A DNA stretch of 54,960 nt. Source: Chiloscyllium plagiosum (Eukaryota). Shown piece by piece: positions 1,118 to 49,100 of this stretch. Under the pieces are notes generated by a model, which ran no database searches, was not told where the DNA came from, and saw only the letters and a program-made list of their open reading frames with translations. A program made the translations under genes and the position numbers. Where the stretch lies: the NCBI RefSeq assembly GCF_004010195.1, contig NC_057719.1, forward strand, positions 982,947-1,037,906, written 5' to 3'. How positions within the stretch are numbered: position 1 is the stretch's first letter; each line of letters starts with the position of its first letter.

Positions 1118-4100
1118 GTAGGAACTACATTTCAAACAGGAACATAAAATGGGATTAGGAGTAGGCCACTCCTCCAACCTGGTCTGACGTTCACTAAGAC
1201 TGTGCCTGAACGTTTCCATCAATCCCACTTTCACCCCAGTCCCTAAATGCCACGATTCCTGGATCTCTGATCACCTCTGGTCTCCATTTAGACTATATCC
1301 AACAACTGAGCAGCTACAGTCCTCTGGGATAGAGAATTATGTTAAGACCACATTTTTTACTTTACGTTTGAATTGAGGACTCAAATGGAAAGATTCACTT
1401 CCCTTTTGAAAGAGTTCCTGAGACTCATTGTGAGTTGTGTTTACACTGTTGCTTTAGAACCTAGAAGAGTACAGCACAGGAACAGGCCCTTCGGCCACCA
1501 TGATGCCATTCTGAACTACTCCCATCAGCCTGCACGTGGTCCCTTCTCTCTATTCCCTGCCAGTTCATGTGTCTGCCTTTGTTATTGGATCTGCTTCGAC
1601 GATTCCCTGGCAGGCACTACCACCCTTTGTATGAAAGTCTTTTCTCACATGCCTCGTTTAAACTTTCCCCCTCTCACCTTCAACCTATACCCCCTAGTAT
1701 TTGACATTTCTACTCTGGGAAAAAGAGTTCAACTATGCACCATGTCTCTCAGAATTTTATATACTTCTATCGGGTCGTCCACAGCCTTTGACACTCTCAT
1801 GAAAAAATCCAAGTTTGTTCACCTCTCATAGAATCCCTACAGTGTGGAAACGGGCCAAATGGCCAATCAAATTCACACTGACCCTCCGAAGCACATCCCA
1901 CCCAGACTCATCCTATCCATGTAACCCTAATTTCCCACCTGGTTTACATATCCCTGGACACTATGAGCAATTTCTCAGGTCATTTGGACTGTTGGAAGAA
2001 ACCCAAAATGGAGGGTGGAATTGAACCTGGGTCCTTGGTGCTGTGAGGCAGCAATGCTAACCACTGAGCCACTATGGCTCTCCTTATATATAATACACTC
2101 CAATCCAGGCAACACCCTGGTAAACCTCTTTTGCACTCTCTCTCCAAAGCCTTCGTATCCTTCCTATAGTGCACACAATAACTGTACTGCACACATTATT
2201 CCAAGTGTGGCCTAACTAAAGTTTTATACAGCTGCAACATGACTTGCCAACTTTTATACTCGATGCCCCAGCCAATTAAGTCAAGCATGCAATATGCCTT
2301 CTTTACCACTTTATCCACTTTCAGGGAGCTATGGACCTGCACCCCAAGATCCCTCTGTAGTTCAATGTTCCTTCATCAATGTAAATTGACATTTACAGTA
2401 TATTTTTCTCTTGCATTTGACCTCCCAAAATGCATCACCTCACATTTGTCTGGATTAAACTCCATCAACCATTTCTCCACCCAATTTTCCAGCTAATCTA
2501 CATACTGCTGTATCCTCTAATATCCTTCCTTACTATTCACAACTCCACTAACTTCCGTGTCATCTGCAAACTTACTAATCAGACCACTAGCATGTTCATT
2601 CAAATCATTTATATATATATTACAAACGACAGAGGCTCCAGCACTGATCTTTGTGGAACAGCACTGGTCACAGTCAGAAAAATCACACACCACCAGGTTA
2701 TACTCCAACAGGTATATTTAAAAGTACAAGCTTTCAGAGCACTACTCCTTCATCAACCTGACAAAGTAGCAATGCTCTGAAAGCTTGTAATTTCAAATAA
2801 ACCTATTGGACTATAACCTGGTGTTGTGTGATTTTTAACTCTGTCCACCCCAGTCCAACACCGGCTCCTCCACATCATGGCTTCCATGACCAAGCCAATT
2901 TTGTATCCGACTTACCAACTCACTGGATTCCATGCAATATGATCTTCAGTACCATCGTACCATGAGGGATCTTATGAAATGTGTTGGTCAAGTCCATGTA
3001 GACAGCATCCAGTGCCCTCCCCTCATCAATCATCTTCAAGCAGTGGGGGAGATTGGGGGAGAAAGATGTTTGAGATCCAATGGCCGCTGTGGGTGTGTAT
3101 GTTCCGAGCAAGCTCTGCCCAGTGACAGATTGTCGATTGGTTTGTGCAATCCGGACTAGTTACGGGGGCGAATAATCATCAGCGTGGCAACAGTACTCTG
3201 ATTGTCTCCTGGCCAGATGGTGGTCAGAGAGTGTATGAACAATACAGAGTCAGAGGGTCTGCAAACTGCAAGAGAGAGCACCTCTCTTTATCTCACTCTG
3301 CAGTGAAGTCACCAAGAAGAGAAAGACAGCTAACCTCTCCCACCATTAGCTGTTACCTCTAACTAGTTACTGAAACACTGAACCATTAATGTATCAGACA
3401 CGTATGGGCCTGGAGTTACATGTCGGGCAGACCAGGTAAGGACGACAGATTTCCTTCCCCAGGGGAGATTGGTAACAATTGACACTGGCTATGGAGTTGA
3501 AATTGGGTCAGTGTCTTTACTGAATTCAGATTGCACCATCTCCCATGTAGGGATTTGATCCCATGCCTCACTATTGACACTGGAAGAATAGCAATATAGT
3601 TTCATATCAGGGTGATGTGTGCCTTGGAGGTGGTCATGGACTTTACCGGCCGTCTCGCACTGGGACAAAATAAAACAAAAAGCTCCGGGTGCTGAAGATC
3701 TGGAACAGAAAGAGAACTTGCTGGAAAAAACTGAGCAAGTCTGGCAGCATCTGTGGAGAAAAAACAGAGTTAACGATTCAAGTCCAGTGATCGATCTTCA
3801 AAACTGTAAACCCTTCTGAGGAAGAGTGACTGGACTTGAAGTGTTGACTTTTCTTTTTCTCTCTCCACAGATACTGTGAGACCTGCTGAGTTTCTCCAGC
3901 AATTTCTGTTTTTAATCTTTCTCGGCAGTGGGAGTTGCGAGTTTGGGAAATAATGCCTGAAAAGGACAGAACATGTGGCACCGTGGTGTCAGTGCTTCAG
4001 GTGGTGAATGAGATGGTGATCGAGTGCACTGCTTTGTCCTGCTGAACTTGTCGAGTTATTGTCAGAGCTGCACTCATCTGTCACCCTCCTGGACTGTGCC

Positions 4101-46100: not shown

Positions 46101-49100
46101 AGAATACAGTGTTACAGCTGCAGAGAAGGTGCAGAGACAGATCAGCATGAATGTTTGAGAGCTCTGTTCAAAAGTCTGATAACTGCAGAGATAAAGCTTT
46201 CCCTGAATCTGTTCACATGCAAATTAAATCTATTTGTGCGTGTATTGGACAGACCGCTTGTTTTCCTTGGAACAGAGGAGATTGAGACGGGACATGATTG
46301 AGATGGATAAAATTATGAGCTGCATAGATAGTGTAGACATGAAGAAAATGTTCCCCTTGATGACAGGATTGATGACTGGGGACATAGATTTATGGATCAG
46401 TGGTGCTGGAAAAGCACAGCAATTCAGGCAGCATTCGAGGACAGGCAAATCCAATGCTGCCTGAATTGCTGTGCTCTTCCAGCACCACTAATCCAGAATC
46501 TGGTTTCCAGCATCTGCAGTCATTGTTTTTACATAGATTTATGGTAAGGGGTGGGGGTTTTGAGGGTGGTGGGGAATCTGGAACTCTCTCCCTGTGAGGC
46601 AGGTAGAAACCTTCATCACACCGAAAAAGTGTTGGAATGTGCAGTAGTGATGCCAAGGTACACGAGACTTTTGGGACATTAGCTGAAAAATAGGATAGAA
46701 TAGTGAGGTGGCTATGTATGACTAGTGAGGATGGAGTGGGCTGAAGGGTCTTTTTTTGTGCCTGCAGATTAGTCAGGTGAGAGGTCAGGCATGCTCTCGG
46801 AGTGTATAGCCTACGTGTGTACACTGCTGGGTGTTATACTCTATCGGTAAAGTTCATTAGTATCGTGCAGCTTCAGGGATCAGATATGAGTTCAAGTCAT
46901 CTCTAACCATAAGACGTTACAATCATAGAATCCCCACAGTGCAGAAAGAGGCCATTTGGCCCATCGAGTCTGCAATGACCCTCCGAAAAGCATCGCCCCC
47001 ACCCTATCCCTGTTAACCAGCATTACCCTGGCCAGTCCGTTGAGTGTGCACATCTTCTGACATTGGAGCAGAGGAAGCAGTGAGGTCGTGACTGATCTGA
47101 TGATCCTCAGTGCTATTTTTCCGCCTTTCCCCATAACCCCAGATTCCCTTCCTGATCTAAAATCTGTCTCTCTTGACTTTGAATATACTTAAATGACCCA
47201 GCCTCGACAGCACTCTGTGGGAAGGAATTTCCACAGGATCCCTCCCCTCTGAGAGAACGTTGGAAATCTGAAACAAACAAACAAACAAACCTTCGGCATA
47301 TTGGATTGGAGACGTTAACTCTGTTTCTCTCTCCACACATGTTGCCAGACCTGCTGAGTTTCTCCAGTATTCTGTGTGTTTGCTCCTCATCTGTTGCTTG
47401 ATCCTGTTGTGTTTTGGTCTGAGCTGGTCTGTGTTACTAGCAGCTCCCTCTTGTTCTATAGAACAGATACCGAGGCTGAGCTTGAGCTGGTATGCAGCTT
47501 GGCCAAGGAGATGGGTGCGTTTGATGCTGTGAAATGTACTCACTGGGCCGAAGGAGGGCGAGGAGCTGTCGAGCTGGCCCGAGCTGTACAGAGAGCCTCT
47601 GAGCTGGACAGCAACTTCAAATACCTGTACCCTCTGGAGGTAAGAACTGACTTGGCTACTTCCTGTTGTCTGTGAAAAATACCACCTGACTTTAAAGAGT
47701 ACCCGGGTGTGTTTTAATAAAAAGATACCAATACTGGAACAAGGGAAGGTTGCTATGTTCCTTGAGTCTGTTCCAATGTTCAGTTAGAATTTGGTTGATC
47801 CATGTCTTAATTACGCAGTCTTAAAATATCTTGCTAATATTCATGGTTTGGAAATTTCACTCACGACCCTCCAGGATTGTCTGGTTTTCAGGTTGGGGGA
47901 GGGGTGAAGGATTCACATTTCTCTTTGTGTGGAGAGTGTTTTCTAGCTGCCACTGAATTATCCAATTTCTAATGTCAAATGTAGATCCCTCCAGAGCTGC
48001 CTTCTGCAGAAGCAGGTTCTGTATATCCACTCCTTTTAATTGTCTTAAAACTGTTTGTGGACGGCAGAGTGGCTCAGTGGTTAGCACTGCTGCCTCACAG
48101 CGCCAGAGACCTGGGTTCAATTCCCGCCTCAGGCAACTGACTGTGTGGAGTTTGCACATTCTCCCCGTGTCTGTGTGGGTTTCCTCCGAGTGCTCCGGTT
48201 TCTTCCCGCAGTCCAAACATGTGCAGGTTAGGTGAATTGGCCGTGCTAAATTACCCGAAGTGTTAGGTAAGGGGTAAATGTAGGGGAATGGGTCTGGGTG
48301 GGTTGTGCTTCGGCGGTTCGGTGTGGACGTGTTGGGCCGAAGGACCTGTTTCCACACTGTAAGTAAGTAAGTAAGTTAAGCCCCCTATTGTACGACCTAC
48401 AAGCAACCTGTCCTCCTCATTAAACCTCTTTTAAACAAAGAACAAAGAGAGGTACAGCACAGGAACAGGTTCTTTGGCCCTCCAAGCCTGTACCAATGCC
48501 CTAACTAAACTAAAAAACAAACCTTCTGCCCTTATTCAGTCCTATCCCTCTATTCCCTCCCTATTCCTGTAACCATCCAGATGCCTCTTCAATGTCACCA
48601 ACATGCCTGTTTCCACCACCTTTACTGGCAGTGCGTTCCAGGCTCCTACCGTGCTCCGAGTGAAATACTTCCCTCGCACATCTCCCTTACACTTTCCCTC
48701 CCTCACCATGAACCAGTGCCCCCTTGCAATTGAAACTTCAACCCTGGGGAAAAGCCTCTGACTATCCACCCTGTCTATGCCTGTCATAATTGTGTAGACC
48801 TCTATCAGGTCTCCTCTCAGCTGCTGTCTTCCCAGTGAAAACAATCCTAGGCTTTTTAACCTTCCCCCATAGCCAGTGCTTTCGAGACTAGGCTACATCC
48901 TGGTGAACCTTGTCTGCACTCTGTCTCTAAAGCTTCCGCCATCCTTCTGGTAATGTGGCGACCAAAACTGCACCCAATAGCTTGGCCTGTTCTGCCTTGA
49001 GTTGATTCTTAGCCTTGACTATTCCATTCCTGAAAGCCAGTTAATGAAGGATGGAATGGGAGTCAATCTTTACACACACAGGAAATTACTCCTAAACTCA

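What the first reader, a model, noticed from the sequence alone, without database searches (positions are those of the whole stretch)
2672..46544. Recurrent Penelope-derived fold-back insertions with TSDs, a constant ~35-nt tail and hammerhead-like cores
Seen in sequence: at least 8 separate intronic insertions (2672, 3665, 21691, 29971, 35505, 42829, 45470, 46396) from about 4 unrelated sequence families share one architecture, in which a terminus is present twice in inverted orientation. Five have clean TSDs (14, 15, 9, 15, 14 bp). In six, one arm carries an extra unpaired end of nearly constant length: ~38 (2841-2878), 34 (21857-21890), ~30-34 (29971-30000, overlapping the TSD), 35 (35670-35704), ~36 (42985-43020) and 35 nt (46496-46530). 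Two independent family A copies break at the same place (...cattttcagct). Two families link directly to GIY-YIG-coding Penelope pieces in this window (30214-30730 and 24039-24803). Established: PLEs have pseudo-LTRs that can be inverted, have short 3' extensions, and often carry minimal hammerhead ribozymes. Inference: these 135-760 bp units are either a stereotyped product of PLE integration (fold-back second-strand synthesis stopping ~35 nt short) or a non-autonomous MITE-like retroelement class. I cannot tell whether this form has been described in sharks.
Basis: partly seen in the sequence, partly recalled or inferred. Interest (0 to 1): 0.72.

Follow-up and report, generated by a model that had tools for sequence, protein, structure and literature searches.

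The report
Inverted Penelope retrotransposon end insertions
These short mirror-image insertions are real but are the already described footprint of Penelope-like jumping genes (two cut-down copies of the element's end placed head to head, one about 35 bases longer), not a new class of mobile element.

Summary
All eight inverted units exist, between exons of an MTHFD1-like gene. Five have exact 9-15 bp TSDs. Seven have a 31-43 nt unpaired end; one has 63 nt. Six carry a minimal hammerhead core.

This is the published architecture of Penelope-like elements (PLEs): inverted pseudo-LTRs with a 30-40 nt tail (PMC3846280, PMC8557442). The tail spans two reverse-transcription start sites (PMC11167929), and opposite-strand hammerhead pairs 100-700 bp apart are reported (PMC4209133).

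A self-copying MITE-like class is not supported: junctions differ between related copies, and reads of one family showed no shared junction among 15 of 76 joints displayed.

In one copy the arms differ at two linked subfamily sites.

Best model: both target ends prime cDNA, one at each start site, and the cDNA ends are joined by microhomology or snap-back repair.

This scan noted the same phenomenon on other pieces of this genome. My searches found no shark paper on it.

The parts
2678..2878 (.). Family D inverted unit, 201 nt: tail-less arm 2678-2755 (PLE sense on -), tailed arm 2756-2878 (sense on +), unpaired end 2837-2878; inside a CR1-like LINE fragment, no TSD, roughly 20-30 nt of host apparently missing
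3666..3924 (.). Family C inverted unit (old, arms about 78% alike): tailed arm 3666-3803 (sense on -), tail-less arm 3804-about 3920 (sense on +); degenerate TSD 3657-3665/3925-3933
21677..21904 (.). Family B unit: TSD 21677-21690, tail-less arm 21691-21773, tailed arm 21775-21890 (tail 21856-21890), TSD 21891-21904; hammerhead cores 21733-21763 (-) and 21785-21813 (+)
23482..24075 (+). Family A-related PLE fragment encoding the linker and GIY-YIG endonuclease end (81% identical to shark RT+GIY-YIG protein P0001); single arm, not inverted
24075..24803 (+). Family B-related PLE 3' fragment: GIY-YIG region, pseudo-LTR with decayed hammerhead and tail; single arm, no TSD found
29956..30744 (.). 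Family A unit, 759 nt: TSD 29956-29970; tailed arm 29971-30197 (sense on -, tail 29971-30001); 33-nt inverted patch 30194-30226; tail-less arm 30223-30729 (sense on +, endonuclease C-terminus 30223-30456, hammerhead 30640-30667); TSD 30730-30744
35496..35713 (.). Family A subfamily unit, 200 nt: TSD 35496-35504; tail-less arm 35505-35600 with intact hammerhead core 35573-35600 (-); about 7-nt filler repeating adjacent bases; tailed arm 35608-35704; TSD 35705-35713
39593..39947 (+). Family A single-arm copy with tail, not inverted
40482..40698 (.).
42814..43035 (.). Family A unit, 192 nt: TSD 42814-42828; tail-less arm 42829-42904; tailed arm 42905-43020 (tail 36-41 nt); TSD 43021-43035; centre lies in hammerhead stem II
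45469..45797 (.). Family D unit, 329 nt: tail-less arm 45469-45617 abutting a SINE 3' end, 13-nt loop, 40-nt inverted segment 45631-45670, tailed arm 45667-45797; unpaired end 63 nt; no TSD
46382..46544 (.). Family A subfamily unit, 135 nt: TSD 46382-46395; tail-less arm 46396-46451; tailed arm about 46450-46530 (tail 35-38 nt); TSD 46531-46544; no hammerhead core left
47302..47381 (+). Family C single-arm remnant
4623..4808 (+). Host gene exon region: C1-tetrahydrofolate synthase (MTHFD1) dehydrogenase/cyclohydrolase part
   Evidence: E 9e-17
47454..47642 (+). Host gene exon region: formate-tetrahydrofolate ligase part of the same trifunctional gene
   Evidence: E 4e-7

Best explanation
Each unit is one insertion event of an endonuclease-bearing Penelope-like element, built anew at each site. 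The GIY-YIG endonuclease cuts both target strands 9-15 nt apart (inferred from the TSDs). Each 3' end primes its own cDNA on element RNA, one at the outer and one at the inner of two RT start sites about 35 nt apart. That puts an element 3' end at both outer edges and a tail on one only (two start sites and extension of both strands are shown in vitro for an anole PLE; their use here is inferred). Both cDNAs stop early, mostly at or just above the hammerhead, 75-100 nt upstream. Their 3' ends are then joined head to head through 1-4 nt microhomology, a short templated filler, or a snap-back patch (inferred from the junctions). The units are dead, 5'-truncated copies of abundant shark PLE families, not a self-copying class.
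For: Shown here: both outer ends are PLE 3' ends pointing outwards in 8 of 8 units. Arms link to RT + GIY-YIG ORFs. TSD length varies, 9-15 bp. The tail is family-encoded sequence: 327 RNA reads run on past 30731 with the tail, agreement 0.86. Junctions differ between same-family copies, 29971 vs 42829 and 2672 vs 45470. The tail-less arm reaches further upstream in 4 of 8 (29971, 35505 by about 32 nt, 46396 by 15-18, 3665 by about 11); it is within about 3 nt in 3 of 8 and ambiguous in 45470. At 29971 the tail-less arm holds about 250 nt of ORF/UTR absent from the tailed arm, so it was not copied from it. The 29971 arms differ at 30621 and 30623, two variants whose shares move together across runs (0.31/0.38, 0.82/0.83, 0.30/0.31). 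Primer-template microhomology of 1-4 nt at the short end in 4 of 5 TSD-bearing units (read). Non-inverted copies of the same families sit in the window. Literature: inverted pLTR, 31-bp tail and 9-10 bp TSD (PMC3846280); 30-40 bp tail at one end (PMC8557442); both strands cut and extended, two RT start sites, predicted dimer (PMC11167929); dual minimal hammerheads 100-700 bp apart on opposite strands (PMC4209133).
Against: No genome was held, so the anatomy rests on 8-9 copies. The arm asymmetry is post hoc and weak (4 of 4 informative, p=0.06; 5 of 5 with the ninth unit, p=0.03). Three centres are nearly perfect hairpins, which plain self-priming explains as well. In 29971 and 45470 the inverted patch can be read as the tailed arm with a later internal deletion (252 and 45 nt); then the arms end within about 10-13 nt of each other. 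The 13-nt loop of 45470 could not be assigned from the window, and my recollection of that family puts it on the tailed side, against the rule. The 29971 arms share the same base at the other listed polymorphic sites they cover, and the two differences sit next to private deletions, so gene conversion or local repair is possible. In vitro the anole enzyme showed no difference in start site between strands and no homology between primer and template. The 45470 unpaired end is 63 nt. Family D has no ORF link in the window.
Confidence: 0.8

Rival explanations
1. Hybrid self-priming: the inner-site (tail-less) cDNA folds back on itself and is copied towards the 3' end, then anneals to a short cDNA primed at the outer site from the other target end. 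One RNA suffices. This is a variant of the best explanation that differs in how much of the second arm is made from RNA.
For: Central unpaired bases belong to the tail-less arm in 4 of 8 copies; at 29971 the 9-nt loop reads in frame with the ORF of the tail-less arm. Three centres are symmetric to 1-3 nt. Self-priming at inverted junctions was proposed in PMC3846280.
Against: The 29971 arms differ at two linked subfamily sites about 110 nt inside the arm, which a self-copy would not give. The 35505 centre has a direct filler, not an inverted microhomology.
Confidence: 0.3
2. One reading: one cDNA starts at the tail end, folds back, and second-strand synthesis stops about 35 nt short of the start.
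For: Compatible with the three near-symmetric units (42829, 21691, 2672; at 2672 the tailed arm is 3 nt longer) and possibly 45470.
Against: Fails for 29971, 35505, 46396 and 3665, where the tail-less arm holds upstream sequence that the tailed arm lacks. Gives no reason for a fixed stop, whereas two RT start sites are shown in vitro.
Confidence: 0.07
3. The palindromic units are a non-autonomous, self-propagating MITE-like retroelement class mobilised in trans by PLE proteins.
For: Five of nine units are 192-201 nt long (and coordinates of the ninth); family A is very abundant (90,479 contigs laid in one run); non-autonomous PLE derivatives exist in algae (PMC8557442).
Against: No two units in the window share a centre. 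Of 76 joints, the 15 best supported each rest on one contig, none on RNA reads, and only one changes strand. The similar lengths follow from arms ending at the hammerhead.
Confidence: 0.05
4. The units are DNA-transposon MITEs with terminal inverted repeats, or assembly artefacts.
For: Inverted termini with TSDs; one 130-bp tandem duplication touches the 29971 unit.
Against: TSD length varies (9, 14, 14, 15, 15), arms continue into RT/GIY-YIG coding sequence, one end overhangs by about 35 nt, hammerhead cores are present, and arms differ by 4-22% so they are not mirrored reads.
Confidence: 0.02

Closest known systems
EN+ Penelope-like element insertions with inverted pseudo-LTR and tail (Pen2a/Pen2 of Adineta vaga, PMC3846280; general scheme in PMC8557442)
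   Same: Head-to-head inverted 3' ends, a 30-40 nt tail on one end, 9-15 bp TSD, palindromic or microhomology junctions, 5' truncation.
   Different: Here both arms are usually cut to 60-100 nt, so the whole unit is 135-330 nt and looks like a MITE; published examples that I read mostly keep the ORF between the repeats.
PAc (Poseidon of Anolis carolinensis) in vitro, PMC11167929
   Same: Two RT start sites bounding the tail, cleavage and extension of both strands, uncleaved hammerhead RNA as template (most arms here extend across the cleavage site).
   Different: The paper does not derive inverted inserts from the two sites, reports no primer-template homology and no strand bias in start site; here 1-4 nt microhomologies and one tailed plus one tail-less end are the rule in the 8 inverted copies.
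Minimal hammerhead ribozymes of metazoan PLEs (PMC4209133)
   Same: Conserved core, extra base before stem II, no helix III loop with a palindromic 4-mer (ACGU in families A and B, AGCU in D), dual motifs on opposite strands 100-700 bp apart.
   Different: Sharks are not among the genomes named in the sections I read; cleavage was not tested here.
L1 twin priming (recalled, no paper read)
   Same: Both target ends prime reverse transcription and the cDNAs are joined by microhomology.
   Different: In L1 the inverted and direct parts come from different, non-overlapping stretches of one RNA; here both arms copy the same 3' stretch.
MITEs and metazoan retrozymes (descriptions seen only as passages or listings)
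   Same: Small size; inverted termini (MITEs); hammerheads and PLE dependence (retrozymes).
   Different: No fixed TSD length, no shared internal sequence or junction, no tandem direct repeats of canonical hammerheads.

Membership tests
EN+ Penelope-like elements | ORF with RT followed by a C-terminal GIY-YIG endonuclease | tested here: met
   Window fragments 23482-24039 and 24075-24518 hit GIY-YIG below the curated cut-off (E 6e-4, 1e-3). Shark homologues at 63-81% identity carry RVT_1 then GIY-YIG. 30223-30456 matches them at 62-85%. Met for families A and B only; RT itself is not in the window.
EN+ Penelope-like elements | Pseudo-LTR in direct or inverted orientation, inverted copies head to head | tested here: met
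   8 of 8 units, 3' ends pointing outwards.
EN+ Penelope-like elements | [quoted passage not shown] | tested here: met
   31-43 nt in 7 of 8, 63 nt in one; tail is the family's own sequence in reads.
EN+ Penelope-like elements | Short TSD of variable length | tested here: met
   Exact in 5 of 8, degenerate in 1, absent in 2.
EN+ Penelope-like elements | Clade assignment by RT phylogeny (Neptune for A and C, Poseidon for B) | not tested
   Labels rest on recalled protein motifs only; no tree was built.
Minimal PLE hammerhead | CUGANGA and GAAA core, stem II, palindromic helix III | tested here: met
   Core with at most 2 mismatches in 11 of 16 arms (6 of 8 units); palindrome intact in 7 of those 11. 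Reads restore the core U at 30641 in 437 of 454 RNA reads. Free folding gave no support for 7 of 8 segments and z -2.6 for one, as expected of a motif that folds as a dimer.
Minimal PLE hammerhead | Self-cleavage | not testable with these tools
   No pile-up of molecule ends in RNA reads (table 6), which a poly(A) single-cell library need not show.
Self-propagating non-autonomous element (MITE-like) | Many copies with one shared internal junction | tested here: not met
   0 shared centres among 8 units; each of the 15 joints shown of 76 rests on one contig. Family A only; partial table.
DNA-transposon MITE | Fixed TSD length and flush terminal inverted repeats | tested here: not met
   TSDs 9-15 bp; one end overhangs by 31-63 nt.
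Insertion with TSD | Empty orthologous site holds one TSD copy | not tested
   No orthologous site was examined. Only a proxy: the host repeat unit next to 29971 (30763-30781) shows the TSD-like motif once.

The most novel reading that the evidence does not exclude
These stubs are an in vivo record of the unresolved steps of PLE integration: a dimeric enzyme primes two cDNAs on two separate RNA molecules, one from each RT start site with a fixed division of labour (the inner-site, tail-less cDNA runs further), and the host joins their ends by polymerase-theta-type repair. A very large shark sample would make this directly testable from sequence alone.
Probability: 0.3. Interest if true: 0.5.

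Novelty: new member of a known kind. Interest (0 to 1): 0.22.

Why it matters
As an element class it is ordinary. Two uses remain. First, annotation: these 135-330 nt hairpins mimic MITEs and microRNA precursors (sub-threshold Rfam hits) and should be filed as truncated PLE insertions. Second, mechanism: the steps after priming are stated to be unvalidated (PMC11167929). With tens of thousands of contigs per run in one family, arm polarity and subfamily mismatch between arms could decide between one-RNA and two-RNA models without bench work.

Tried and rejected
The window's genome was not held, so no genome-wide table could be built.

A 19-nt family A pattern found 0 matches in viral contigs. 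A degenerate version found 81 stretches in metagenome contigs; the longest alignments of the fetched loci to the elements were 54 nt at 76% identity, so I treated all as chance.

Rfam at E up to 5 gave 23 matches, none at gathering score and no hammerhead family; the microRNA hits are hairpin look-alikes.

Free-energy folding of eight hammerhead segments was uninformative.

The look-up of earlier findings by sequence was blank. No RNA holder was listed among the indexed runs for 42300-43560; this is no evidence on expression.

No TSD was found for 2672, 45470 (also searched upstream of the SINE), 24075, 39593-39947 or 47302.

An A>G excess in RNA over DNA (39 of 302 vs 16 of 205 places) is not significant, p=0.08; not claimed as editing.

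The 5- to 10-fold rise in read depth at the hammerhead (202, 970, 2073) cannot separate truncation from subfamily divergence at 85% likeness, so it is only weak support for clustered ends.

[quoted passage not shown] Supplements were not opened; Figs S1-S2 of PMC11167929 and S2-S3 of PMC4209133 may bear on tail ends, inverted products and species coverage.

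
Full report
Setting. The window is shark-like DNA rich in LINE and SINE fragments. Exon-sized stretches at 4623-4808 and 47454-47642 match the two halves of C1-tetrahydrofolate synthase, MTHFD1. A further exon-like frame lies at about 940-1155 (its identity is recalled). I did not map all exons, but no unit overlaps these. The closest proteins to the element are from Chiloscyllium punctatum and Rhincodon typus. No whole genome was held.

Observation. All eight inverted units are there. Five have exact TSDs of 14, 15, 9, 15 and 14 bp. Random window pairs gave 14 or more in 2 of 969 and 9 or more in 21 of 969. The 3665 unit has a degenerate TSD (8 of 9); 2672 and 45470 have none. 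The 2672 unit sits in a CR1-like fragment and, by eye against three paralogues, roughly 20-30 host bases are missing. Strict unpaired ends are 41, 31, 34, 38, 35, 42 and 63 nt, and about 43 nt at 3665. The 63-nt case abuts a SINE end. A probable ninth unit lies at 40492-40688 (marginal, 1 of 200 shuffles, TSD 9 of 10). At least four further PLE pieces are single-armed (23482, 24075, 39593, 47302), so inversion is common but not universal.

What the arms are. Turned to element sense, each arm is the 3' end of a PLE: hammerhead, 40-65 nt of spacer, an inner end, and in one arm about 35 nt more. Family A (29971, 35505, 42829, 46396) runs into a GIY-YIG coding stretch at 30223-30456, 62-85% identical to shark proteins that carry RVT_1 then GIY-YIG. 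Family C (3665) is related to A (0 of 500 shuffles). Family B (21691) is a relative of the GIY-YIG piece at 24075-24803 (87 of 122; 0 of 500). Family D (2672, 45470) aligns with neither and has no ORF link here; it is placed by its hammerhead, tail and architecture. The clade names Neptune (A, C) and Poseidon (B) are recalled, not tested. A hammerhead core is found in 11 of 16 arms, with the helix III palindrome ACGU or AGCU intact in 7. The strict pattern exceeded all 100 shuffles.

Reads. I laid four runs on the tail-less arm 30230-30760 at 85% likeness: 90,479 and 62,540 contigs from DNA runs of two organisms, 2,611 raw RNA reads, and 13,181 contigs of a third organism. Behind 30731, 327 RNA reads continue with the tail (agreement 0.86), so the tail is family sequence, not filler. 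Loose ends before 30654-30660 keep the hammerhead core and lose agreement a few bases above it. RNA depth rises from 202 to 970 to 2073 across this region; truncation and subfamily divergence cannot be told apart. Fifteen of 76 joints were shown, the best supported: each rests on one contig, none on RNA reads, and one changes strand.

What is known. PMC3846280 (11 passages seen) describes an element bounded by an inverted pseudo-LTR, a 31-bp tail on one inverted copy, 9-10 bp TSDs, palindromic junctions, and head-to-head as the usual polarity. PMC8557442 (9 passages) gives a 30-40 bp tail often at one end as a general PLE feature. PMC11167929 (parts 1-2 of 4, covering the main text; figures and supplements not seen) shows both target strands cut and extended, two RT start sites that bound the tail, uncleaved RNA as the main template and a predicted dimer; later steps are left unvalidated. 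PMC4209133 (parts 1-2 of 4) defines the minimal hammerhead and reports dual motifs 100-700 bp apart on opposite strands in Schistosoma. PMC8969392 and PMC6155905 were seen as passages. Listings showed no paper on this form in sharks.

Mechanism. Both outer junctions have the polarity of target-primed reverse transcription: a target 3' end followed by antisense element sequence. Four of five short ends share 1-3 exact bases with the TSD, and the tail end of 29971 shares up to 4 (read). Against family references from the window, the tail-less arm is longer at 29971 (about 298 nt, or about 10 nt if the 33-nt patch is counted with the tailed arm), 35505 (about 32), 46396 (15-18) and 3665 (about 11). 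It is within about 3 nt at 42829, 2672 (tailed arm 3 nt longer) and 21691 (no close reference). It is ambiguous at 45470, where a 40-nt inverted segment may be a snap-back patch or the tailed arm after a 45-nt deletion; my recollection of the family favours the loop being on the tailed side. That is 4 of 4 informative copies, p=0.06, post hoc. At 29971 the arms differ at 7 of 198 aligned sites. Two of them, 30621 and 30623, are common family variants whose shares move together across runs. This suggests two RNA templates. Against it, the arms agree at the other listed polymorphic sites and private deletions lie next to these two, so conversion or local repair is not excluded. The centres show 1-4 nt overlaps, a 7-nt filler (35505) and inverted patches (29971, 45470), which I read from recalled knowledge as end-joining signatures.

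Best reading: twin priming at the two RT start sites, early stop near the hammerhead, head-to-head joining (0.8 for the integration-signature reading as a whole). Whether one or two RNAs are used is open; a hybrid with self-priming of the tail-less cDNA fits most copies too. Listings showed no paper that states this model for PLEs, though it follows closely from PMC11167929.

Earlier notes. This scan noted the same phenomenon on other pieces of this genome: fold-back stubs as a by-product, centres rebuilt at each insertion, and ends piling up just above the hammerhead. These are unchecked AI notes, seen after my own reading was formed; they are not counted as evidence.

Verdict. Observation confirmed, interpretation partly supported. 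New members of a known kind; interest 0.22. What may be new is the use of arm polarity and arm haplotypes to read out the integration mechanism, which here rests on a handful of copies.

Noticed in passing
29768-30026: A 130-bp tandem duplication (2 differences) covers the left flank, the TSD and the first 56 nt of the tailed arm of the 29971 unit: a later duplication or an assembly artefact.
   Followed up: partly
40482-40698: Probable ninth inverted unit (family C) with a 9-of-10 TSD, in which the tailed arm is only about 40 nt.
   Followed up: partly
42940-43020, 35621-35704, 46454-46530: An ATG-started frame stays open through the tail in three family A subfamily copies (27, 28 and 25 codons); a 3-nt indel keeps the frame between two of them, the third shifts by one. 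May be the ORF start, as the pseudo-LTR plus tail overlaps the ORF start in rotifer and anole PLEs.
   Followed up: partly
3850-3875, 40625-40645, 47325-47345: Family C has a pyrimidine tract ending in CAG (CAC in the third copy) just before that ATG position, like a splice acceptor; PLEs can carry introns.
   Followed up: no
23482-24803: A family A-related fragment is followed directly, in the same orientation, by a family B fragment; both encode endonuclease parts. Nested insertion or template switch between two PLE families; no TSD found.
   Followed up: partly
window 30230-30760: A>G places are 39 of 302 in RNA reads against 16 of 205 in DNA contigs (p=0.08); intronic hairpins of this kind could be ADAR substrates, not shown.
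   Followed up: partly
43579-43865, 44445-44643, 45167-45464: Three SINE copies in alternating orientation give further inverted pairs (I1, I6, I10) that are not PLE units.
   Followed up: no
2678-2878, 21691-21890, 35505-35704, 40492-40688, 42829-43020: Five units from four families are 192-201 nt long, pointing to a shared spacing from hammerhead to inner end to tail end.
   Followed up: partly
26365-26506, 33640-34271: Two assembly gaps (N runs), both inside CR1-like LINE fragments and away from the units.
   Followed up: no
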